Positions 45,310 to 54,787 of a stretch of 64,000 bases of DNA are shown piece after piece; within the stretch, counting starts at the first letter, position 1; every line of letters begins with the position of its first letter. Made by a program: the position numbers and the translations under genes. The notes under the pieces are model-generated. The model did not search any database, was not told where the DNA came from, and was given only the letters and a program-made list of their open reading frames with translations. This DNA is from an uncultured Candidatus Izemoplasmatales bacterium (GTDB lineage Bacteria > Bacillota_I > Bacilli_A > Izemoplasmatales > Izemoplasmataceae): assembly GCA_964643385.1 (NCBI GenBank), contig CAZXSS010000001.1, positions 5,283 to 69,282 of the forward strand. The letters run 5' to 3'.

Positions 45310-47340
45310 ATGATGCGCAATAGAAAAAAGTCGATTTACTATTATAGTTTCATCACATTGCTTGTCTTTATAGGGGTATTGCTTGGGTATTTATTTATTT
45401 TACCACCAAGGCGCGCAAGCATTGTATGGCCAGCATTGGGACTTGCCTTTGGATTTCGGTATAGTTTAGGGCGTAAAGTATTGCCTTATATCATCCTCGG
45501 GTATTTTTTAGGATATTTCTTTAGCGAAACACTTATTTCTAATAATGTGTTTTATATGGCGTTTGTCGTTGCGCTAATCATGAGTATATTTTTATTTATT
45601 GCATTAGAACTTGGTATAAAAACTGTTAGATGGATTCATTATAAATCCAAAATCACATTATACAGTTTGTTGAAATATGCCATTGTAGGGTTAGTGATTG
45701 CACTTTTTACAAGTATTACTGGATCACTATTTTATGCAAGTTTAGGCTATATTCCTTTTGATACTTATTTCGGTAGTACGCTTGTTTGGATTTTAGGCGA
45801 TTTTTTTAGTCTTGTTGGCTTTGGTTTGCCTGTAATATACAGTGTCAAATTTGATACAAATTCTTTGCAGGAAAAACCATTCCTTAAACTTATCATTTAT
45901 GGATTATTTCTCTTGACACTTGTTGTATTATTAACAGATCTTGTGCCGGCTTTAAACTTTAGAAACCATAAATTTATTTTGGCTTTCTTCTCTTTCGTCT
46001 TAGCATTTTATCTACCCTACCGGACGATCTATTTATTCCATATAATTTTGCTGACAACCATGGTTATTTTTTCGCCTTTCAATCATATGGTTAATTACTT
46101 GCGGTTAATGATGGAAGTAAACTTATTTTTAGCACTCATGGCTATAACAACCATAACCATTAAGTACCATATACGGGCAATAAATATTAATAAAGATACG
46201 ATATCTGCAAAAGCTGAACGGTTGGATTTATTACTTAATGCTTTAGATAATTTGTTGGCAATGCCTTCAGAAAGCAATAAACTAGAACACCATAATATCA
46301 ATGACCATTTAAGTCAAATGTTTAGAATGGTTTATACGTTGTTTGATAAGGCTGATTATGGTTCATGTATGATTATTAATCGGACGATTGAGTTTATCGA
46401 TGGTATAGGGTTTGATATTGATGTTTTAAATCAGTTAAAATTAACTGGTAAAACACACACGTCGTATCATTTAGACGAACCGTATATTCAAACACAAGCA
46501 GAAACACACCTTAACAAAGACTTAGGTGAGAAATATTATGCAGTATATAAAAAGGCCAATCCTGCGATTAAAGAAAGTCTTTATGTTGGGTTTAGAATTG
46601 CTAAAGACATTGTGTGTGAAATGAGTTTTGATTTAAAAATCGATAGTGATGATTACTATACACAAGATGACTTGATGTTTTTTAGTTCTTTACAAACGTT
46701 GCTTGGCAGTTTTTATGAAACAGAAAAAGTCACAAGAGAATATAGTACTCTTAAAAACGATATTATTTTGAGTTTATTAAGAACGTTAGAACTCTTCGAT
46801 AAACAAGCAGGCATTCATAGTATGGATGTGGCCTTAATAGCGCAGCATCTCGCAGAAAAACTCAACCTTCATGAAGGGTTAGTTAACGATATTTATTGGG
46901 CGGGCATTGTCCATGATATTGGTAAGTTGGGTATTGATATGTCCGTCTTGAAAAAAGACGGGTTATACACAGTCAATGATTATGAGACAATGCAAGCGCA
47001 TGCGTTACTTAGCTATCAAATCTTGTCTAAGTCTGATGAACTGAAGTCTATTGCGAGTATTGTCAAACACCATCATGAATGGGTCGATGGATCTGGGTAC
47101 CCTGATCAAATTACGGGAAATGAGATTCCATTGCCCGCAAAGATATTACATATTGCAGAAGCTGTAGCGGTGATGATGCGTGAATGGTCTTATCAAGATG
47201 CGAAATCTGATCAGGAGATTATTGAAGAATTGCGTAAACAAAAAGGCACACAATTTGATTCTAAATGTGCTGATGCGATGATTGAATTAATTGAAAACGG
47301 CGTATTAGAAGAGGTTAAACAAGCAAACAGAGCTGATTAA
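45310..47340 (+). CDS. Polytopic membrane sensor with C-terminal HD-GYP domain (c-di-GMP phosphodiesterase family)
   Basis: About 9 TM in aa 1-290, a middle domain of unknown type, then HDIGKLGI ... HHEWVDGSGYP. Confidence 0.85.
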   Translation: MMRNRKKSIYYYSFITLLVFIGVLLGYLFILPPRRASIVWPALGLAFGFRYSLGRKVLPYIILGYFLGYFFSETLISNNVFYMAFVVALIMSIFLFIALELGIKTVRWIHYKSKITLYSLLKYAIVGLVIALFTSITGSLFYASLGYIPFDTYFGSTLVWILGDFFSLVGFGLPVIYSVKFDTNSLQEKPFLKLIIYGLFLLTLVVLLTDLVPALNFRNHKFILAFFSFVLAFYLPYRTIYLFHIILLTTMVIFSPFNHMVNYLRLMMEVNLFLALMAITTITIKYHIRAININKDTISAKAERLDLLLNALDNLLAMPSESNKLEHHNINDHLSQMFRMVYTLFDKADYGSCMIINRTIEFIDGIGFDIDVLNQLKLTGKTHTSYHLDEPYIQTQAETHLNKDLGEKYYAVYKKANPAIKESLYVGFRIAKDIVCEMSFDLKIDSDDYYTQDDLMFFSSLQTLLGSFYETEKVTREYSTLKNDIILSLLRTLELFDKQAGIHSMDVALIAQHLAEKLNLHEGLVNDIYWAGIVHDIGKLGIDMSVLKKDGLYTVNDYETMQAHALLSYQILSKSDELKSIASIVKHHHEWVDGSGYPDQITGNEIPLPAKILHIAEAVAVMMREWSYQDAKSDQEIIEELRKQKGTQFDSKCADAMIELIENGVLEEVKQANRAD

Positions 47341-47356
47341 TCAGCTCTGTTTTTTA
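47328..47356. terminator. Perfect 22-nt palindrome containing both convergent stop codons; bidirectional terminator
   Basis: cagagctgatt|aatcagctctg (47328-47349), then T6. TAA of the HD-GYP gene (47338-47340) and TGA of kamE (47341-47343) sit at the palindrome centre. Confidence 0.75.
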
Positions 47357-48075
47357 TGGAGTGCTTGAACGGCGAAACTGGCAACATCATACGCGTACTT
47401 TTTAGGACCGAAGCCAGCATCATAGCCTAGTTCTTTAGCTAGCGCATGATTGATTCTAGCGCCGCCGATGATGACGATAAAATCATCACGTTTATTTTCT
47501 GCTTCTAAGAGTTCTATGAAGGCTGTGAGGTTTTGAATGTGCACGTCTTTTTGGGTAACGGTTTGACTAATTAAAATCACATCTGCTTGATGGGTTATGG
47601 CTTCTTCTAGCAATGTTTCATTATCGATTTGACTGCCTAAGTTAATTGCCTGAATGCCTTTATAGCGTTCTAAACCGTAATTTCCGTTGAATCCTTTCAT
47701 ATTCATGATGGCATCAATGCCTACGGTGTGTGCATCTGTACCGGTTGATGCGCCAATGAAGGTAAGTGGTCTGTCAAAATGGGTGGCGATATATGTTTCA
47801 ACGGCTTCTTTGCTCATCGTATCTGATTCAATATCTGTGACGGTGATTGTACTTGGATCAATTTGATGGCGGATAGAACCGTAGACAATGTAAAAACTGA
47901 AGTCATCACTCAAGGGTGTGCTATGCACAACACTTGCGTTTTCTAACCCCATCTTATGTGCAAATGCTTTGGCTGTTTCTTCGCCTAGTGTGTCGCATGG
48001 CAAGGGTAAGGTAAAACTAACTTGGACTTTTCCATCGTTTAAGGTATCGCCATAAGGTCTTATGAATTTACTCAT
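47341..48075 (-). CDS. kamE: Lysine 5,6-aminomutase beta subunit (B12-binding)
   Basis: 244 aa. Cobalamin base-off motif GTDAHTVGID. 8-nt overlap with kamD. Confidence 0.88.
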   Translation of the reverse strand: MSKFIRPYGDTLNDGKVQVSFTLPLPCDTLGEETAKAFAHKMGLENASVVHSTPLSDDFSFYIVYGSIRHQIDPSTITVTDIESDTMSKEAVETYIATHFDRPLTFIGASTGTDAHTVGIDAIMNMKGFNGNYGLERYKGIQAINLGSQIDNETLLEEAITHQADVILISQTVTQKDVHIQNLTAFIELLEAENKRDDFIVIIGGARINHALAKELGYDAGFGPKKYAYDVASFAVQALHKKQS

Positions 48076-49633
48076 GATTTGCCTCCTTAAGATGGGTTAT
48101 CATCATGTCCATCACTGGGTTATGGTAGTGTTTGTGTTTTTTTATTACGCCGTCTAACCCTTTTCCTTTGGTTGGGCTGCGTTTAACATCTGCGAAAACA
48201 CCTTTTTCTAGCGAGCTAAATAAGCCGTCTTTTTTGATGGTATCTAGCAGCGCTTTCGCATCATTTAATACGTTAATCGCACGGGTGGCAATAATCCCGT
48301 CGTCTTTATAGGTAATTTCTTGTCCGAAATCTTTGAAGGCTTTATATATAAGTGAGGTATTATCTAAGGCTAGTGCTCTATCACTCATAAACGGGGTATG
48401 AATGGCTTCGGTAATCATCCCTAGTAAATGGATGTTTTGATTGGTCGTGACGGTCGCAATATTAAAGAGGGTATTTAATGTCGTGCCTTTAAAGATATCC
48501 CCGGTCATATGTTTTGTTGGGGGCATATATTTTAGCGGGGCGTTTTTAAAAATATCTCTTGATAATTGGGCGCTGGCTATTTCATATAAAAAGCTGTTTT
48601 CAATCGTAGGATCAATTTCATAGGCATGACCAAGTCCCATGAGTGATTCTTTCATATATGCGGTTTTTGCGAATTGTTCGTTAATGAACTGACTCGCTAA
48701 TACGTTATGAGCATGATGAAAGGCGTCTGCGGTAGTTAGGTAATTATCTTCTCCGGTATTAATGGTGATGTCTGCGTACGCACTGATAACGCGGGAAAAA
48801 TATTGATCAATCATCGTGCGTTTCATATTAATATCACGGAAGATAATCCCATAAAGCGAATCATTGAGCATCATATCTAAGCGTTCTATTGCGCCGAGTG
48901 CGGCGATTTCAGGCATGCAAAGACCGGATGCGTAGTTGACAAGTTTAATATAGCGTTTTTCGGTTTTTGAGACAGTATCAAGCGCTTCGCGCATTAAGCG
49001 GAAGTTTTCTTGGGTAGCGTAAGTTCCGCCGAAGCCTTCAGTAGTAGCACCATAGGGGACATAATCAAGTAATGATTGACCGGTTGTTCTTATAACGGCG
49101 ATTACATCAGCACCGTTTTTCGCTGCGGATACAGCTTGTTTAATGTCTTCGTGGATGTTGCCGGTTGCGACAATAACATATTTTTCTGGTTGATTTTCTC
49201 TTGGAAATGTGTCTAAAAATTGATGACGCGTGCTGGTTTGATGGTTGATTTTTTTCAGTGTTTTTTTAATGTATGGGGTTAATAAGTCTAGATAAGGACT
49301 ATCTGTTTCATCATGATAGATAGATAAATCAATGGTGCCTTCGTTAATGGCATAGGCGATGGCTTGTGGTGATTGATCATGTGCGTGCATCGCATAACTC
49401 ATGTAGTGGGCTATCCCTTTATCTAACCCGTTATTATTCAAAATATGATCAACAACGATATTGGCATAAGGGATATCAAAATCGTTGATGCCATCAATAC
49501 CTAAAAACCTTGCGATGGTACGTTCAACACTTACAGTGGTGTAGTCATCAATCATTGCTTTCATGTTTTTTGCGATGGTTTTTGCATCTTCTCTACAGGC
49601 GTTGATGGTTTGTATGTTTAGTGGTAATCTCAT
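48068..49633 (-). CDS. kamD: Lysine 5,6-aminomutase alpha subunit
   Basis: 521 aa TIM-barrel-size protein directly upstream of the B12-binding subunit within a kamA/kdd/kce/kal cluster. Confidence 0.85.
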   Translation of the reverse strand: MRLPLNIQTINACREDAKTIAKNMKAMIDDYTTVSVERTIARFLGIDGINDFDIPYANIVVDHILNNNGLDKGIAHYMSYAMHAHDQSPQAIAYAINEGTIDLSIYHDETDSPYLDLLTPYIKKTLKKINHQTSTRHQFLDTFPRENQPEKYVIVATGNIHEDIKQAVSAAKNGADVIAVIRTTGQSLLDYVPYGATTEGFGGTYATQENFRLMREALDTVSKTEKRYIKLVNYASGLCMPEIAALGAIERLDMMLNDSLYGIIFRDINMKRTMIDQYFSRVISAYADITINTGEDNYLTTADAFHHAHNVLASQFINEQFAKTAYMKESLMGLGHAYEIDPTIENSFLYEIASAQLSRDIFKNAPLKYMPPTKHMTGDIFKGTTLNTLFNIATVTTNQNIHLLGMITEAIHTPFMSDRALALDNTSLIYKAFKDFGQEITYKDDGIIATRAINVLNDAKALLDTIKKDGLFSSLEKGVFADVKRSPTKGKGLDGVIKKHKHYHNPVMDMMITHLKEANHE

Positions 49634-50625
49634 CGGTTGCCCTCCTCTTCTTGGACGTTAATTACTGGGACGCTAATGGCGTCTTGCATGGCACTGTGAA
49701 AGGCCACTTTGTCATATCCCTGTCCGGTTGGTCTAAAGGGATTAATCGTGACACATAGTAAAGGTATTGTATGCAAGACTTCAATTCTGATGTTTAACTT
49801 TTTGATATAGGTAAAATAGTGGGTTGGTAATAATAGTTTGGTCGCATTATCTATAACTAATGTAACGTTTTTTTCTTTATGGTTAATAAAGTAATCGATG
49901 ATGCGTTTTGTGATGGCGCCTTTTATATAGAGTGTTTTATTACCTGCTTCATTGGCGGGCGTTAATACGTGTCCAATCACTTTTGGGGTGTTGTGCTTGT
50001 TGGTGGTAATAGTTAAAGGGTCACCGCTTTTTAGTGTAGATAAATCCAATCCTGTTTGCGGATATTGAAAACTTTTAACGATGGCTTGTGTTGCTTTAAT
50101 TGTTGTTGCCATGTCTGGATGAAGGCTAGCCCCTGTTGCAAGAATCACGCCATCAAGGGATGGTATGCTTGCTACGGTTTTTCGGTTAAATGCGCCATCA
50201 ACCAAAATAATATCTGACAAAGGTTTTAATGTGGTGATGATGGTGCTTAAATCTTTATTGGTTGATGGGCCAGCAATTACAACATTACCAGGATGTGTTA
50301 TCTTGATGATAACAATATTGCCTAGTGCTGTAGAACACGTTGTTCGTTTAATGAGACTATATTTTATAAGCGTGTCTTTTAGTGTATCTTCTGCCGTAGC
50401 AATAATCATACCTTTTTTGACTGTGATTTGTGGTTTCGGAAGAAAGGTTAATTGGTCGATTTGTTCACCATCTAAACCGATGCTTGTGAGTGCGATGCGC
50501 GTATCATTAGGTAATGTTTTAATGCAGGCATTTAATGTGGTTGTTTTGCCGGTGTTTTTGGCAAGCCCAATAATTGCAAGTGTGGTTGGTTGTGCGGTTG
50601 ATAATACGGTATGTAAAGTTGTCAT
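49630..50625 (-). CDS. P-loop NTPase between kamA and kamD; candidate aminomutase reactivase ATPase (KamC-like)
   Basis: 331 aa. N-terminal GLAKNTGKTT P-loop. Start ATG abuts the kamA stop; 4-nt overlap with kamD. Confidence 0.5.
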   Translation of the reverse strand: MTTLHTVLSTAQPTTLAIIGLAKNTGKTTTLNACIKTLPNDTRIALTSIGLDGEQIDQLTFLPKPQITVKKGMIIATAEDTLKDTLIKYSLIKRTTCSTALGNIVIIKITHPGNVVIAGPSTNKDLSTIITTLKPLSDIILVDGAFNRKTVASIPSLDGVILATGASLHPDMATTIKATQAIVKSFQYPQTGLDLSTLKSGDPLTITTNKHNTPKVIGHVLTPANEAGNKTLYIKGAITKRIIDYFINHKEKNVTLVIDNATKLLLPTHYFTYIKKLNIRIEVLHTIPLLCVTINPFRPTGQGYDKVAFHSAMQDAISVPVINVQEEEGNR

Positions 50626-51864
50626 TTACTTATAGTCAGGTTCTAGACTAATGCGATTGCCATCTAATAACCCACTAACCCCATTTAGACGTGTATTTTG
50701 ACAGTCTTCACATTCACATTGTGCGACGTAATGCGTTGGTTCTGAATAGGTTGTAATCACACCTTCATAATTTCTTAAGACAATTTTACCTGGGGCTTGG
50801 GATATAACGTAGTTTGGCATCACAGGAATTTTTCCGCCACCACCTGGGGCATCAACAACGAATGTTGGGACCGAAAATCCACTGGTATGACCGCGTAACC
50901 CTTCAATAATTTCTATGCCTTTACTTACAGGGGTTCTAAAATGTTCAATACCCATGGATAAATCACATTGATAAATGTAGTATGGTTTAACGCGAATCGC
51001 GACGAGGCCTTGCATAAGTTTGCGCATCACATGAACACAGTCATTAACCCCACGGAGTAAGACGCTTTGGTTTCCTAAAGGGATACCGGCATTGGCGAGT
51101 TTATCGATGGCTGCTTTACTGTCTTCTGTGATTTCAAGGGGATGATTAAAGTGGGTGTTTAAATATATCGGATGGTACTTTTTAAGCATGTTTACTAAAT
51201 CATCTGTAATCCGCTGTGGCATAACAACGGGGGTTCTTGTGCCAAAGCGAATGACGGCGACGTGATCAATACCGCGGAGTGCTTTTAAAATATACTCGAT
51301 GCGCTCATCGCTTACAAGTAAGGCATCACCGCCGCTTAATAACACATCATTGATTTCTTCATGGTTGCGGATATAGTCAATGGCTTGGTCGATATGATCT
51401 TGTGGGGAAACTTGATCGTGCATGCCAGCAAACCGTCGTCTTGTACAGTGGCGACAATACATGCTACACATGTCGGTAATTAAAAATAACACGCGGTTAG
51501 GATAACGGTGGGTTAACCCAGGAACCGGTGAATCATGGTCTTCTGCGAGTGGGTCTAGTAAGTCGTGTTTAGATACGGTAAGTTCATTCGCTAAGGGGAC
51601 CGCTTGAAGTCTAATTGGATCATATTCGTTGCTTGGATCAATTAGGGTAAGATAATAGGGTGTTATAGCCATTCTAAATCGCCCAAGCACATCACTGATC
51701 ATTGAAGCTTCACGGTCCGATAAATGGATGTATTTTTCTAGGTCTTCAACGGTTGTGATGCGGTTTTTTACTTGCCAATGCCAGTCATTCCAATCGGTAT
51801 CACTAACAGTGGGAAAGTAGACTTCTTTACGTTTTAGATGGGCTTTATTTAATTGCGGTTTCAT
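50626..51864 (-). CDS. kamA: L-lysine 2,3-aminomutase (radical SAM, PLP)
   Basis: CSMYCRHCTRRR radical-SAM cluster motif, WNDWHWQ, typical length of 412 aa. Confidence 0.95.
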   Translation of the reverse strand: MKPQLNKAHLKRKEVYFPTVSDTDWNDWHWQVKNRITTVEDLEKYIHLSDREASMISDVLGRFRMAITPYYLTLIDPSNEYDPIRLQAVPLANELTVSKHDLLDPLAEDHDSPVPGLTHRYPNRVLFLITDMCSMYCRHCTRRRFAGMHDQVSPQDHIDQAIDYIRNHEEINDVLLSGGDALLVSDERIEYILKALRGIDHVAVIRFGTRTPVVMPQRITDDLVNMLKKYHPIYLNTHFNHPLEITEDSKAAIDKLANAGIPLGNQSVLLRGVNDCVHVMRKLMQGLVAIRVKPYYIYQCDLSMGIEHFRTPVSKGIEIIEGLRGHTSGFSVPTFVVDAPGGGGKIPVMPNYVISQAPGKIVLRNYEGVITTYSEPTHYVAQCECEDCQNTRLNGVSGLLDGNRISLEPDYK

Positions 51865-51875
51865 AATGGTCCTCC

Positions 51876-52916
51876 TTAGATATATTTTTGGGAAAATAGG
51901 GTTCTTATTTTATCGCTTTCTCTAATAATATTTAAGGTTGTTTCGGCGTGGTTTTTTGTGTACCCGTTACCAATAATCATTTGTACATCTTTGCCGACAC
52001 CTTCAGCGCCAAGTGCTGCTTTTGTGAAACTAGTGGCCATTGAAAAGAAATAGACAATGCCATCGTCTTTGGTGCTTAAGATGGAGGCCATTTCAGTATC
52101 AGGGACATTGACCACGTTAATGGTTAAATCCGCTAACTTATTGTCAGTAATGCGGGCGATTTTTTGGTAAACGTCAACAGCATTTTGCGCATCAGCTAAG
52201 ATAACATCATCACATATATCTAAAGAAGCTAATTGATCGATTTGTGCAGGTTCATTAACAAGCCCAATGACTTTACCGTTTTTACCAACGTGTTTTTTAG
52301 CTTGATAGGCACAAAGAATACCGCTTTTACCAGCCGCACCAATAATGAAGACAGTGTCATCTTTTTTTGCGAGTTTTTTAACTTGGGCAGGTGCACCGGC
52401 AACATCTAAACCAGCTAAGACGAGTTTTGGATTTAAATCATCAGGGATTTCAGCGTATAAGCCTGAATCAAATAAAATGGCTTGACCTTTGATGGTGACT
52501 TGTTCGTTCGTTACGTTAATATCGATGATGTCATCAATGTGTAATGGTGTTAAAGATAAAGAAACAAGGGTTGCGATGGTTGTGCCTACTTTCAGTTGTT
52601 GATTATGGAAGTCTTTGCCGACTTCTAAAACATCACCAATAAGCATACCACCACTTTTAGTCACGGGGTTTTGCATTTTGCCTTTGGTTTTAACAATATC
52701 TTTAATCATTTGTTTCATGATGGTTTTATCATTGTTTGCGGCCTGTTTAATTTGATGAAATGAGGCAGAATCAATGTTTAATGTATGGACATTAATTTTT
52801 AGTTCATTTGCATGTAGTGTCATTGATGCATCGATCACATCGGCGGCTTGTGGTAAGGTGGGTTTATCAGATAATACCCGGTGGGTTCCATATGGACATA
52901 ATTTCATTAAAGTCAC
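51876..52916 (-). CDS. kdd: L-erythro-3,5-diaminohexanoate dehydrogenase
   Basis: 346 aa. Rossmann motif IIGAAGKSG. Conserved position in the lysine fermentation cluster. Confidence 0.78.
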   Translation of the reverse strand: MTLMKLCPYGTHRVLSDKPTLPQAADVIDASMTLHANELKINVHTLNIDSASFHQIKQAANNDKTIMKQMIKDIVKTKGKMQNPVTKSGGMLIGDVLEVGKDFHNQQLKVGTTIATLVSLSLTPLHIDDIIDINVTNEQVTIKGQAILFDSGLYAEIPDDLNPKLVLAGLDVAGAPAQVKKLAKKDDTVFIIGAAGKSGILCAYQAKKHVGKNGKVIGLVNEPAQIDQLASLDICDDVILADAQNAVDVYQKIARITDNKLADLTINVVNVPDTEMASILSTKDDGIVYFFSMATSFTKAALGAEGVGKDVQMIIGNGYTKNHAETTLNIIRESDKIRTLFSQKYI

Positions 52917-53734
52917 TCCTTTATGTTTAGTATTCTGCGGGCTTCTTTAGGGGTTGCGATTAAGCGATTGTGGGTTTTAGCAATGGCGACGACTTTTTCA
53001 ACGAGTTGTTTATTGCCTTTGGCAAGAACACCTTTTTCTAAATAGATATTGTCTTCTAAGCCAACGCGGACATGACCACCTGCTTTAATGGCAAGTTCAG
53101 CAAGCGAAAACTCATATTTCCCAATACCAGCAACACTGTAGGTTGCATCAGGTGGTATGGATGCTTTTAAGAAATGAAAATCTCTTTCTTCACCGGTCAT
53201 GCCTCCGTTTACACCTAAGACAAAACTAAAATGTAAGGGGGCATGAATAAAGCCTTTTTTGTGTAATCTTAAAACGGTATCTATGTGTCCTTTTTCAAAA
53301 CATTCTAGTTCTTTAAAGATATGATTGTTTTCCATGATTTTAGCCATTTTTTTGATGTCATTTTCTGTATTAACAAATATCGCATCGCCACCAAAATTTA
53401 AAGTACCACAATCAAGGGTAGCCATTTCAATAGGCAGTTCGGTCACGGCGAGGCGCTCTTTTAATGACATGCCAACAGCGCCACCGGTTGATGGTTGGAT
53501 AATGACATCTGGGCATACAGCTTTGATGGCATCAATTAATACTTTATAGCGGGTCTTATCTTGAGTTGGTGTGCCATCTTCTTCTCTTGCATGTAAATGG
53601 ATAATGCTTGCGCCGGCTTGATAAGCAGCCTGTGCTTCTTGGACTATCTCATCTTTGGTGTAGGGAATATAAGGGGTATGGTCCTTGGTGACCTCTGCGC
53701 CTGTGATGGCACATGTGATAATCAGTTTATCCAC
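52913..53734 (-). CDS. kce: 3-keto-5-aminohexanoate cleavage enzyme (BKACE/DUF849 family)
   Basis: [11 protein letters not shown]...IPYT..EI...[16 protein letters not shown] family signature; 273 aa. Confidence 0.85.
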
Positions 53735-54110
53735 GTTGATTTTCCTTTAAAACGACGCAGGTGCCAATGGCTTTGGTTGTGAGGATGCGTTCTTCTAAAA
53801 GATCCGCAGCTGAATCACTGATGTCTTTTCTTGGGGTGATTACTTTATAACAAGCAAATTCCATTTTACGTGATGTATTGCCTATGGCGATAATTTTGCC
53901 TTCAAGTTCAATAAAGTCACCAGCGTAAAGTGGGGCTAAAAAATCGATATCTTCATAACTTCTAAATAATCCTTCATCACCATCGTGACGAATCAGTAGT
54001 TCGGTGGCTAAATCACCAAATAAGGCAAGGACTTTAGCGCCATCTACTAAATTGCCGCCGTAGTGCGCATCGGCTTGAGATAGGCGTAATCTTAACGTTG
54101 TTTTCTCCAT
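53727..54110 (-). CDS. kal: 3-aminobutyryl-CoA ammonia-lyase (hot-dog fold)
   Basis: 127 aa hot-dog-size protein immediately upstream of kce; 8-nt overlap. Confidence 0.72.
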
Positions 54111-54112
54111 TA

Positions 54113-54535
54113 TTATTCCTCCATCTTTTTGTTTTTTTTCGGCATCAGCATAGCTTCGCCGGTTAATAGTTTTAAATTGTCTTTTGAGATGATATCTGTG
54201 GTGAAATAGGCGCGGTTTTTTTCTTTATCTAAGGATTTAACGGTAACTTTTATCGTGAGTTCTTGATCGGGATAGACAGGTTTTAAAAAGGTTAGCGATT
54301 GTGAGACATAAATGGTGCCTTCACCGGGGTACTCTAGACCGAAGATTTTACTGAATAGTGATCCGACAAGCATGCCATGAACAATGGGTTGTCTAAACAC
54401 TGTTGATTTACAGTAGTCCTCATCAAAATGGGCCGGATTATAATCGGCGGTGATGCGGGCAAATGCTTCAACATCTTGTTTGGTAATGATGCGAGTATAT
54501 TCTTTGGTATCCCCAATACGCATTGAATGTATCAT
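54113..54535 (-). CDS. MaoC-like (R)-specific enoyl-CoA hydratase/dehydratase
   Basis: DYNPAHFDE and IVHGML hydratase motifs. True start ATG 54535 (MIHSMRIGD) follows RBS AAGGAGGA; the track N-terminal extension to 54601 would run through the terminator hairpin. Confidence 0.82.
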
Positions 54536-54550
54536 GAATATCCTCCTTAA

Positions 54551-54590
54551 AAAATATAAAATAAAAAAGCTGTCCTTAGGACAGCTCTCC
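54551..54590 (-). terminator. Riboswitch expression-platform terminator
   Basis: Minus strand reads GAGAGCUGUCC-UAA-GGACAGCUUUUUUAUUUUAUAUUUUUU: 8 perfect bp plus A-U and G-U extensions, and a long U tract, 15 nt before the RBS. Confidence 0.85.
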
Positions 54591-54745
54591 ATGATGGTCA
54601 TGGCAATGACTAAAGTGTGCCTTTAATCATCAAGTATATAGATGAGACAGCCATATACTTTCGGCGAAGTTTCCCTTCTTTAATAAAGTCGAATGTCTCG
54701 TTCTCAAGCCCTTATTAAATACCCAATACTTCGCGCCTCTGTTTA
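54579..54745 (-). promoter_or_regulatory. Lysine riboswitch (L-box) aptamer
   Basis: Minus strand carries ACAG-AGGCGCGAAGU..., AGGGAAACUUCGCCGAAAG, GGCUGUC, CAUUGCCA, the CCAUGA/UCAUGG hairpin and 3' GGAGAGCUGU. These match conserved L-box core strings known from lysC leaders. Confidence 0.85.
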
Positions 54746-54757
54746 CATTCCACTCGT

Positions 54758-54787
54758 ATTATAGTATATAAATGTAAGCGTTGTCAA
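54758..54787 (-). promoter_or_regulatory. Consensus promoter driving the riboswitch and lysine operon
   Basis: Minus strand reads TTGACA (54787-54782)-18 nt-TATAAT (54763-54758), about 12 nt before the aptamer P1. Confidence 0.7.

What the first reader, a model, noticed from the sequence alone, without database searches (positions are those of the whole stretch)
54551..54787. Unannotated lysine riboswitch wired as an apparent ON switch in front of the lysine-fermentation operon
**Aptamer.** The 427-nt gap upstream of the maoC-kal-kce-kdd-kam operon holds a minus-strand consensus promoter (TTGACA-18-TATAAT). It is followed by an element carrying the conserved L-box core strings:
- ACAG-AGGCGCGAAGU
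- AGGGAAACUUCGCCGAAAG
- GGCUGUC
- CAUUGCCA
- a CCAUGA/UCAUGG hairpin
- 3' GGAGAGCUGU

**Expression platform.** The 3' end of the aptamer (GAGAGCUGU, which includes the CUGU strand pairing with the 5' ACAG of P1) is itself the 5' arm of a strong intrinsic terminator (AGCUGUCC-UAA-GGACAGCU plus a long U tract). No separate antiterminator segment lies between them. Ligand-stabilised P1 and the terminator therefore appear mutually exclusive, which predicts read-through when lysine is bound.

**Why it matters.** Characterised lysine riboswitches (lysC and transporter leaders) are OFF switches. An ON design fits substrate induction of a catabolic pathway. I recall that comparative genomics has proposed activating LYS elements upstream of kamA-type operons in a few anaerobes, but I cannot verify that here. 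The P1 helix is only about 4 Watson-Crick pairs, so the switching logic needs a test.
Basis: partly seen in the sequence, partly recalled or inferred. Interest (0 to 1): 0.75.

Follow-up and report, generated by a model that had tools for sequence, protein, structure and literature searches.

The report
Lysine-activated riboswitch before lysine-fermentation operon
This is a genuine lysine-sensing RNA switch whose own 3' end doubles as one arm of a transcription terminator, so lysine should turn on the genes that ferment lysine; the design was predicted by comparative genomics in 2003, so this is a clean new example and not a new kind of element.

Summary
Rfam RF00168 (lysine riboswitch) matches window 54749..54574 on the minus strand at 82.3 bits (gathering score 30, full-length model). 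It sits between a 12/12 sigma-70 promoter and an intrinsic terminator.

The terminator's 5' arm is the aptamer's J5/1 strand plus the P1 3' strand (GAGAG-CUGU-CC). No antiterminator segment lies between them.

The operon downstream is maoC-kal-kce-kdd-kamA-kamB-kamD-kamE. Seven of the eight genes are NCBIfam equivalogs above cutoff.

The same wiring appears in 30 of 32 lysine-riboswitch leaders found upstream of kal in other genomes. Compensatory changes preserve both P1 and the terminator.

In an unselected sample of 120 metagenomic L-boxes, 58 have a separate terminator (median 44 nt downstream, the classical OFF layout). The only three followed by kal/kce are three of the four with the compact direct-overlap layout (Fisher p = 1.4e-5).

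ON logic is therefore well supported computationally but untested experimentally. Activating lysine elements before lysine-catabolic genes were already proposed (Rodionov 2003, cited in PMC2258182; PMC5584792). This is a new member of a known kind.

One extra finding: a conserved CcpA cre-like site overlaps the -35 hexamer.

The parts
54758..54787 (-). Sigma-70-type promoter: -35 TTGACA (54787-54782), 18-nt spacer, -10 TATAAT (54763-54758). The predicted transcription start is near 54751.
   Evidence: 12 of 12 match. The promoter sits at the same distance from the aptamer in orthologous leaders.
54772..54787 (-). cre-like (CcpA-type) operator TTGACAACGCTTACAT overlapping the -35 hexamer. It probably adds catabolite repression to the riboswitch control (inferred).
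   Evidence: It is the only match to WTGNNARCGNWWWCAW in the window. An exact consensus match is present in 17 of 32 orthologous leaders, 37-45 nt upstream of the aptamer.
54574..54749 (-). Lysine riboswitch aptamer (L-box, RF00168) with helices P1-P5 around a five-way junction.
   Evidence: 82.3 bits against a gathering score of 30; across 32 leaders, 89% of cells are paired and 46 of 52 pairs change on both sides.
54739..54742 (-). P1 5' strand, ACAG.
   Evidence: Covariance-model alignment. The third pair covaries C-G to U-A among leaders.
54695..54699 (-). L2 loop GAGAC, which forms a kissing interaction with L3.
   Evidence: 88.5% paired against about 40% when the partner is slid; all 5 pairs change on both sides.
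54644..54648 (-). L3 loop GUCUC, the kissing partner of L2.
54581..54584 (-). P1 3' strand, CUGU. The same four bases lie inside the terminator 5' arm and are the switching element.
54565..54589 (-). Intrinsic terminator hairpin GAGAGCUGUCC-UAA-GGACAGCUUUU. The 5' arm is the last base of P5, then J5/1 (AGAG), then the P1 3' strand (CUGU), then CC.
   Evidence: -14.9 kcal/mol; 0 of 2000 shuffles.
54551..54568 (-). U-rich tract following the terminator stem (UUUUUUAUUUUAUAUUUU).
54533..54548 (-). Ribosome-binding site AAGGAGGA (54548-54541) and maoC start codon ATG (54535-54533). It lies downstream of the terminator and is not sequestered in either conformer.
54113..54535 (-). MaoC-like (R)-specific enoyl-CoA hydratase domain protein, the first gene of the operon.
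   Evidence: PF01575, 1.8e-20.
53727..54110 (-). kal, 3-aminobutyryl-CoA ammonia-lyase.
   Evidence: NF052388 equivalog, 180.5 bits against a cutoff of 160. (source names).
52913..53734 (-). kce, 3-keto-5-aminohexanoate cleavage enzyme.
   Evidence: NF052387, 407.9 against 382.
51876..52916 (-). kdd, L-erythro-3,5-diaminohexanoate dehydrogenase.
   Evidence: NF052381, 237 against 200.
50626..51864 (-). kamA, lysine 2,3-aminomutase.
   Evidence: TIGR03820, 609 against 525.
49630..50625 (-). kamB, lysine 5,6-aminomutase reactivase subunit.
   Evidence: NF052386, 288 against 210.
47341..49633 (-). kamD and kamE, lysine 5,6-aminomutase alpha (49633..48068) and beta (48075..47341) subunits. This is the end of the co-directional gene run.
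   Evidence: NF052384, 808 against 600; NF052385, 364 against 280.

Best explanation
This is an L-lysine riboswitch that works as a transcriptional ON switch for the lysine-fermentation operon maoC-kal-kce-kdd-kamA-kamB-kamD-kamE.

1. Transcription starts near 54751 from a consensus promoter.
2. Helices P2-P5 and the L2-L3 kissing loop fold first.
3. The last aptamer segment to emerge, GAGAG-CUGU, can take either of two roles. It can close the five-way junction (J5/1 plus a 4-bp P1 with ACAG). Alternatively it can serve as the 5' arm of the terminator hairpin with GGACAGCUUUU, which is transcribed only about 6 nt later.
4. Without lysine the terminator wins. It is about 11 kcal/mol more stable than P1, so transcription stops at the U tract before maoC.
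5. With lysine bound, J5/1 and P1 are locked into the junction long enough for RNA polymerase to clear the U tract, and the operon is transcribed.

Because the terminator is far more stable, control must be kinetic, not at equilibrium. A cre-like operator over the -35 hexamer probably adds catabolite repression.

Shown: aptamer identity, structure overlap, conservation, covariation and gene context. Inferred: lysine as the ligand, the direction of the effect, kinetic control and the role of the cre site.
For: - Aptamer: RF00168 at 82.3 bits over the full model. Across 32 homologous leaders, 89% of cells are paired, 46 of 52 pairs carry double-sided changes and 0 of 500 shuffles reach this. The L2-L3 kissing loop covaries.
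- Platform: it is the only terminator-like site in the leader. Its 5' arm begins 5 nt upstream of the P1 3' strand and covers all four P1 3' bases.
- Energies with P2-P5 held fixed: -37.6 with P1, -34.5 without P1 and -48.8 kcal/mol with the terminator. The minimum-free-energy fold has the canonical P1 at transcript length 171 and the terminator from length 183.
- Conservation: 30 of 32 kal-linked leaders, from Izemoplasmatales, Acholeplasmataceae, Christensenella, Oscillospiraceae and other Clostridia, have a U-tract hairpin covering at least 3 of the 4 inner P1 3' bases.
- Dual constraint: J5/1 position -2 pairs A-U in 18 leaders and C-G in 8. P1 3' position +2 pairs G-C or G-U in 21 and A-U in 7 with the terminator arm. 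The same base pairs C-G or U-A within P1.
- Control: among 120 unselected metagenomic L-boxes, 58 have a separate terminator starting 20-117 nt (median 44) after P1. Four have a compact direct overlap. All three loci with kal/kce downstream are among those four (Fisher p = 1.4e-5).
- Context: seven lysine-fermentation equivalogs lie directly downstream on the same strand.
- Literature: ON-logic lysine riboswitches that bury terminator pieces are reported in PMC2258182. Positive control of kal/kce is reported in PMC5584792.
Against: - There is no experimental evidence for this element. I found no experimental test of any natural lysine ON switch in the searchable library.
- P1 has only 4 Watson-Crick pairs and adds just -3.1 kcal/mol. 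Whether bound lysine can hold off an 11-bp terminator is an assumption.
- The gap between the P1 3' strand and the terminator 3' arm is only 5 nt (CC plus the UAA loop), leaving a very short decision window.
- The P2 loop-E motif reads UGGGUA where the consensus has AGUA.
- Ligand specificity was not tested.
- Two of the 32 leaders deviate: L054 has a weak U tract and L070 has two hairpins.
Confidence: 0.85

Rival explanations
1. This is a classical OFF switch. Lysine binding promotes termination, or blocks translation, as in lysC and transporter leaders.
For: All experimentally characterised natural lysine riboswitches mentioned in the papers read here repress expression (PMC9495366; PMC10974012). 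The aptamer itself cannot be told apart from OFF-type aptamers at the junction core.
Against: - An OFF switch needs a terminator that can coexist with the bound aptamer, plus an antiterminator. Here the terminator 5' arm is J5/1 plus the P1 3' strand, so bound aptamer and terminator cannot coexist.
- OFF-type leaders in the control set place the terminator a median of 44 nt further downstream.
- The ribosome-binding site lies beyond the terminator and is unpaired in both conformers.
- Repressing a lysine-catabolic operon with lysine makes no physiological sense.
Confidence: 0.03
2. This is an ON switch of the same architecture, but the aptamer has drifted to sense a related compound (beta-lysine, D-lysine or another pathway intermediate) and not L-lysine.
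For: Specificity was not tested. This clade carries small deviations from the Rfam consensus in P2 (UGGGUA where the consensus has AGUA; GAAGGG where it has GAAAGG).
Against: - The junction strings that are upper-case in the Rfam consensus (AGAGG.GC, GCCGAA, the G and CA of CUGuCA, GGAG.GCU) are all kept.
- The score is 82 bits, typical for lysine aptamers.
- L-lysine is the pathway substrate and the natural inducer.
Confidence: 0.05
3. The hairpin is a leaky constitutive attenuator and the aptamer is a non-functional relic. Real control comes from proteins, for example a factor bound at the cre-like site.
For: The terminator is 11 kcal/mol more stable than the P1 state. A conserved protein-operator-like sequence overlaps the promoter.
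Against: A relic would not keep 89% pairing with compensatory changes in all helices and in the kissing loop across 32 leaders from several orders. It also would not keep the exact register between the P1 3' strand and the terminator.
Confidence: 0.04
4. Lysine control acts mainly after transcription, through mRNA stability or translation as in E. coli lysC, and the hairpin serves only as a structural or 5'-stabilising element.
For: Dual-acting lysine riboswitches exist in Gammaproteobacteria (PMC5584792 section 10).
Against: The hairpin is followed by a long U tract in 30 of 32 leaders, which is the signature of intrinsic termination. The ribosome-binding site has no conserved pairing partner, because the sequences 3' of CUGU differ completely between leaders.
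Confidence: 0.03

Closest known systems
Predicted activating LYS elements (L-boxes) upstream of lysine-catabolic kal/kce/kam genes in Thermoanaerobacter tengcongensis, Fusobacterium nucleatum and Clostridium sticklandii (Rodionov et al. 2003, as cited in PMC2258182; PMC5584792 section 13)
   Same: The aptamer family, the position in front of lysine-fermentation genes and the proposed logic are all the same: ligand binding buries part of a terminator stem and gives positive control.
   Different: - The lineage differs: an Izemoplasmatales-like member of Bacilli/Mycoplasmatota.
- The operon begins with maoC and carries the whole pathway in one unit.
- P1 is only 4 bp, against 8-11 bp in clostridial versions.
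- A cre-like site overlaps the promoter.
- I could not read the 2003 paper itself, so a detailed comparison of its proposed structures was not possible.
Bacillus subtilis lysC-type L-box (classical lysine OFF riboswitch)
   Same: Same RF00168 aptamer: five helices, L2-L3 kissing loop and the same junction core. Control is through an intrinsic terminator.
   Different: OFF leaders add an extra folding element, an antiterminator, and place the terminator well downstream. In the control set the median is 44 nt after the P1 3' strand (PMC2258182). Here the terminator starts 5 nt before the P1 3' strand, which gives the opposite logic.
pbuE (ydhL) adenine riboswitch and gcvT glycine riboswitch (natural ON switches named in PMC2258182)
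   Same: The expression-platform principle is the same: the aptamer's 3' strand is shared with the terminator 5' arm, so ligand binding prevents termination. As with gcvT, the substrate induces its own catabolic pathway.
   Different: The aptamer classes and ligands are different and unrelated in sequence. The comparison concerns how the element works, not family membership.
Engineered lysine-ON riboswitches (Zhou and Zeng 2015; Lys-A variants in PMC10974012)
   Same: Lysine-dependent activation of a downstream gene using an L-box aptamer.
   Different: Those were made by library selection from OFF switches and act in other hosts. This one is natural, compact (about 200 nt from transcription start to U tract) and transcriptional.

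Membership tests
Lysine riboswitch / L-box (Rfam RF00168) | Covariance-model score at or above the curated gathering score, over the full model | tested here: met
   82.3 bits against 30, E 5.6e-20, model positions 1-182 of 182.
Lysine riboswitch / L-box (Rfam RF00168) | Five helices P1-P5 around a junction, supported by covariation | tested here: met
   Across 32 homologous leaders, 89% of cells are paired and 46 of 52 pairs change on both sides. Slid controls give 39-48% paired.
Lysine riboswitch / L-box (Rfam RF00168) | Conserved junction core (AGAGG.GC, GCCGAA, UG.CA, GGAG.GCU) | tested here: met
   All are present in the window and invariant or nearly so in the 11-sequence alignment.
Lysine riboswitch / L-box (Rfam RF00168) | L2-L3 loop-loop (kissing) interaction | tested here: met
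   GAGAC (54699-54695) pairs with GUCUC (54648-54644). 88.5% of cells are paired, all 5 pairs show double-sided changes, and slid controls give 29-51%.
Lysine riboswitch / L-box (Rfam RF00168) | Loop E (sarcin-ricin) and K-turn motifs in P2 | tested here: inconclusive
   The window reads UGGGUA and GAAGGG where the consensus has AugAGUA and GAAAGG. No dedicated motif analysis was done.
Lysine riboswitch / L-box (Rfam RF00168) | Selective binding of L-lysine | not testable with these tools
   This needs in-line probing or ITC.
Activating (ON-type) lysine riboswitch of lysine-fermentation operons | Located in the 5' leader of lysine-catabolic genes (kal, kce, kam), on the same strand | tested here: met
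   maoC-kal-kce-kdd-kamA-kamB-kamD-kamE lie directly downstream.
Activating (ON-type) lysine riboswitch of lysine-fermentation operons | The terminator stem shares bases with the aptamer's closing helix, with no intervening antiterminator | tested here: met
   The terminator 5' arm starts 5 nt before the P1 3' strand and covers all 4 of its bases. The two states are mutually exclusive.
Activating (ON-type) lysine riboswitch of lysine-fermentation operons | The architecture is conserved in orthologous leaders and specific to this gene context | tested here: met
   30 of 32 kal leaders have it. Compensatory changes are present. In 120 unselected L-boxes, 3 of the 4 compact direct overlaps are followed by kal/kce, against 0 of 116 for the rest.
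Activating (ON-type) lysine riboswitch of lysine-fermentation operons | Lysine increases read-through or expression | not testable with these tools
   This needs transcription assays or reporters.
Classical OFF-type L-box expression platform | A separate downstream terminator, plus an antiterminator formed with the P1 3' strand | tested here: not met
   There is no second terminator in the leader. In OFF-type controls the terminator starts 20-117 nt after P1. Here it starts at -5.
CcpA catabolite-responsive element (cre) | Match to the consensus WTGNNARCGNWWWCAW at or near a promoter | tested here: met
   TTGACAACGCTTACAT at 54787-54772 is the single match in the window. By chance 0.35 matches are expected and 29% of shuffles have at least one.
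CcpA catabolite-responsive element (cre) | Conservation beyond what the promoter hexamers require | tested here: met
   An exact consensus match is present in 17 of 32 leaders, 37-45 nt upstream of the aptamer, while the rest of the spacer varies.
CcpA catabolite-responsive element (cre) | CcpA and HPr kinase encoded in the genome; binding or repression shown | not tested
   Only a 64 kb window is available and it was not searched for these genes.

The most novel reading that the evidence does not exclude
In the Izemoplasmatales/Acholeplasmataceae lineage the lysine switch has been pared down to a minimal kinetic ON device. P1 is only 4-5 bp, so ligand control would be exerted mainly by locking the junction strand J5/1 (GAGAG) away from the base of the terminator, with P1 playing a minor part. 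The riboswitch is combined with a CcpA-type operator over the -35 hexamer. The operon would then compute 'lysine present AND no preferred sugar' within about 240 nt. This would be the first natural lysine-ON switch whose mechanism could be dissected, and a ready-made part for lysine-responsive activation.
Probability: 0.3. Interest if true: 0.45.

Novelty: new member of a known kind. Interest (0 to 1): 0.33.

Why it matters
- It shows that an uncultured Izemoplasmatales-like bacterium induces its complete lysine-fermentation pathway directly with lysine through RNA.
- It extends a prediction made for a handful of anaerobes to at least 31 further genomes in two phyla-level groups.
- Natural lysine ON switches are little known outside comparative genomics. 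A 2024 engineering paper still states that natural lysine riboswitches only repress and had to select activating variants (PMC10974012). A compact natural ON platform, with many sequence variants in hand, is directly usable for testing kinetic riboswitch models and as a lysine-inducible part.
- It is not a new principle.

Tried and rejected
- Primary papers: I tried to read Rodionov 2003 (DOI and PMC290268), Serganov and Patel 2009 (PMC3744886), Serganov 2008 (PMC3726722) and Garst 2008 (PMC2504901). None is held. The prior prediction is therefore cited second-hand, and the lysine-contacting bases could not be mapped.
- Experimental validation: literature searches for a tested natural lysine ON switch found only engineered ones.
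- Source record: the look-up of encoding contigs on the 100%-identical Kal protein P0001 returned nothing, so the window's source record is not identified. The nearest genome is an Izemoplasmatales MAG (L001, 95% Kal identity).
- Longer P1: I looked for a longer or alternative P1 in the window. Only a non-canonical GGA/UCC plus GU/GC pairing appears in the unconstrained fold. It is not conserved and was rejected.
- RBS sequestration: I looked for sequestration of the ribosome-binding site in either state and found none that is conserved.
- Terminator finder artefact: my automatic finder picked long irregular hairpins that start in the aptamer 3' end for several control loci (L101, L125, L133, L186). 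Inspection showed asd-like genes and a separate downstream terminator, so these are ordinary OFF leaders, not further ON switches.
- Failed scripts: two scripts crashed on an unbalanced structure string and were redone.
- Thermodynamic switching was rejected. The terminator is favoured by about 11 kcal/mol, more than plausible ligand-binding energy, so control must be kinetic.

Full report
**Observation**

On the minus strand the leader reads, in order:
- -35 TTGACA (54787-54782), an 18-nt spacer and -10 TATAAT (54763-54758);
- an aptamer-like region;
- the hairpin GAGAGCUGUCC-UAA-GGACAGCUUUU (54589-54565) followed by a long U tract;
- the ribosome-binding site AAGGAGGA (54548-54541);
- ATG at 54535.

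A scan of the whole window against Rfam 15 gives one gathering-level hit. It is RF00168 (lysine riboswitch) at 54749..54574 on the minus strand: 82.3 bits against a gathering score of 30, E 5.6e-20, covering model positions 1-182. In the model alignment P1 is AAACAG/CUGUCC with two outer A.C mismatches, which leaves four Watson-Crick pairs: ACAG 54742-54739 with CUGU 54584-54581. The promoter is a 12 of 12 consensus match. The hairpin is the only terminator-like site between 54300 and 55100. Shuffling the 43 nt downstream of the aptamer never reproduced a hairpin this stable with the P1 3' strand paired into it (0 of 2000).

**Gene context**

The co-directional genes downstream are:
- a MaoC-like hydratase (Pfam);
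- seven NCBIfam equivalogs, all above their curated cutoffs: KAL, KCE, KDD, lysine 2,3-aminomutase (KamA), reactivase KamB, and lysine 5,6-aminomutase alpha and beta.

This is the complete lysine-to-acetate/butyrate fermentation set. Kal homologues carry the source name 3-aminobutyryl-CoA ammonia-lyase. The closest ones come from Izemoplasmatales, Acholeplasmataceae and 'Tenericutes' MAGs. The nearest genome locus (L001, 95% Kal identity) is an uncultured Candidatus Izemoplasmatales bacterium.

**Is the aptamer real and under selection?**

A Kal alignment retrieved 80 kal loci from one-genome-per-species contigs.
- Rfam found RF00168 upstream of kal, on the same strand, in 10 of the first 12 loci.
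- A covariance model built from these plus the window found 32 leaders, the window plus 31 loci, always upstream of kal on the coding strand.
- On that alignment 89% of cells are paired. 46 of 52 pairs show changes on both sides. No shuffle reaches this, and slid controls fall to 39-48%.
- The tertiary L2-L3 kissing interaction, GAGAC/GUCUC in the window, also covaries (UGGAC/GUCCA, UAGGC/GCCUA, GGGGU/ACCCC and others). It is 88.5% paired against 29-51% when slid.
- P1 covaries at its third pair: C-G in 22 leaders and U-A in 9.

These leaders are functional L-box aptamers.

**Expression platform**

In the window the terminator 5' arm is made of the last base of P5, the junction strand J5/1 (AGAG), the P1 3' strand (CUGU) and CC. 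Only CC and the UAA loop separate the P1 3' strand from the 3' arm. With P2-P5 held as in the Rfam structure, the energies are:

| State | Energy (kcal/mol) |
|---|---|
| P1 formed | -37.6 |
| No P1 | -34.5 |
| Terminator formed | -48.8 |

The unconstrained minimum-free-energy fold contains the canonical P1 when the transcript is 171 nt long. It switches to the terminator once the transcript reaches 183 nt. Three things follow:
- the two structures are mutually exclusive;
- termination is the default state;
- a ligand can only act by holding J5/1 and P1 in the junction while polymerase passes the U tract, which is kinetic control (inference).

No sequence is available to form an antiterminator. 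The ribosome-binding site is free in both states.

**Conservation of the wiring**

In 30 of the 32 kal leaders the best U-tract hairpin starts 1-6 nt before the P1 3' strand and covers at least 3 of its 4 inner bases. 27 cover all four. The loop-proximal halves of these hairpins share no sequence, so the hairpin is maintained by selection and not by shared ancestry alone.

I anchored each hairpin on a single pair and scored the other eight base-of-stem positions:
- 93.5% are paired, against 85.4% when 3' arms are swapped among leaders (0 of 1000 swaps reach the observed value).
- J5/1 position -2 is A-U in 18 leaders and C-G in 8.
- The third P1 3' base pairs G-C or G-U in 21 leaders and A-U in 7.
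- That same base pairs C-G or U-A inside P1. One nucleotide is therefore tracked by two alternative partners, which is what a switch requires.

There are two exceptions. L054 (Caloramator) has the overlapping hairpin but a weak U tract. L070 (Alkalithermobacter) has an overlapping hairpin followed by a second, separate terminator. That may be a three-hairpin version of the same logic, but I did not analyse it further.

P1 is 4-5 bp in the window's clade and 8-11 bp in several Clostridia, where the terminator is correspondingly longer.

**Control set**

An exact-pattern scan of metagenome contigs for the generic L-box core returned 120 loci, unselected for gene context. The same terminator finder classified them as follows:

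| Class | Loci |
|---|---|
| Separate terminator starting 20-117 nt (median 44) after the P1 3' strand (classical OFF layout) | 58 |
| No U-tract hairpin within 160 nt | 26 |
| Only a weak hairpin (above -10 kcal/mol) | 15 |
| Terminator starting 1-14 nt after P1 | 6 |
| Long irregular hairpin starting in the aptamer 3' end | 6 |
| Too little downstream sequence | 5 |
| Compact direct overlap | 4 |

tblastn with the window's eight proteins found kal/kce downstream in exactly three loci (L117, L178, L185). All three are in the direct-overlap class (Fisher p = 1.4e-5). The fourth direct-overlap locus, and several of the long irregular ones, precede asd-like, deacylase-like or transporter-like genes and have an ordinary terminator further downstream. 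By the same count, the median contiguous P1 in this sample is 5 bp, so a 4-bp P1 is short but not aberrant.

**Comparison with what is known**

- Barrick and Breaker (PMC2258182) state that certain lysine riboswitches, citing Rodionov et al. [quoted passage not shown] They add that most transcriptional riboswitches are OFF switches with an extra folding element.
- Mukherjee and Sengupta (PMC5584792 section 13) list lysine riboswitches upstream of kal/kce in C. sticklandii, F. nucleatum and Thermoanaerobacter. They describe these as positively regulated, citing Serganov and Patel 2009.

The element is therefore a member of RF00168 and of the already proposed activating subclass. It works like the pbuE adenine and gcvT glycine ON switches without being related to them. 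I could not read the 2003 paper. I also found no paper in the library reporting an experimental test of a natural lysine ON switch. A 2024 engineering paper still treats natural lysine riboswitches as repressors only.

**Additional feature**

The 16-mer TTGACAACGCTTACAT (54787-54772), which includes the -35 hexamer, matches the CcpA cre consensus WTGNNARCGNWWWCAW exactly. It is the only such match in the window. That alone is weak evidence, because 29% of shuffles have at least one match. However, the motif recurs as TTGACA[AG]CGCTT[AT]CAT in 17 of the 32 leaders, 37-45 nt upstream of the aptamer, while the rest of the promoter spacer varies. Catabolite repression layered on lysine induction is a reasonable but untested inference.

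**Verdict**

The direction of regulation and the ligand remain inferred. The element is a new member of a known kind. Interest is modest. Its value lies in a broad, well-aligned set of natural lysine-ON platforms and a possible two-input promoter-leader.

Noticed in passing
window 54772-54787 (-): A cre-like (CcpA-type) operator, TTGACAACGCTTACAT, overlaps the -35 hexamer. It is the only consensus match in the window. It is conserved as TTGACA[AG]CGCTT[AT]CAT in 17 of 32 orthologous leaders at a fixed distance from the aptamer. This suggests catabolite repression of lysine fermentation.
   Followed up: partly
L070:5732-6010 (Alkalithermobacter paradoxus) and L054:5762-6000 (Caloramator fervidus): These are variant expression platforms on kal-linked L-boxes. 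L070 has a P1-overlapping hairpin without a U tract, followed by a second, separate terminator, so it may be a three-hairpin ON design. L054 has a 22-bp overlapping hairpin with only a weak U tract.
   Followed up: no
L054, L075, L070, L060 compared with the window clade (alignment A3): P1 length differs sharply between lineages: 4-5 bp in Izemoplasmatales and Acholeplasmataceae, against 8-11 bp (UGCAUAAAUAG/CUAUUUAUGCA) in several Clostridia. Terminator length scales with it, from about -15 to between -25 and -41 kcal/mol.
   Followed up: partly
L017:1-122: A cobalamin riboswitch (RF00174, 52.6 bits, cut at the locus edge) lies about 4 kb upstream of the lysine riboswitch in an Acholeplasmataceae MAG, close to the B12-dependent lysine 5,6-aminomutase cluster.
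   Followed up: no
L024-L080, various: About 49 of the 80 kal loci gave no L-box hit within the sequence held. They include Myxococcota, Bacteroidales, Thermotogae (Marinitoga, Fervidobacterium), Cetobacterium, Spirochaetaceae and an Asgard archaeon MAG. Lysine fermentation in those lineages must be controlled differently or from further upstream. Some of these loci are truncated upstream.
   Followed up: no
window 45310-47340 (+): A MASE1 plus HD-GYP (HD_5) domain protein converges on the end of the kam operon. It may be a cyclic-di-GMP phosphodiesterase. No link to the riboswitch was examined.
   Followed up: no
window 54113-54601 (-): The longest mechanical ORF for maoC starts at an ATG (54601) inside helix P5 of the aptamer. 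The start preceded by a ribosome-binding site is 54535. An automatic annotation that used the long ORF would hide the riboswitch.
   Followed up: yes
L081-L200 (metagenome L-box sample): Only 3 of 120 unselected L-box matches (2.5%) are of the kal/kce ON type. The others mostly precede asd-like, deacylase-like or transporter-like genes with separate terminators.
   Followed up: partly
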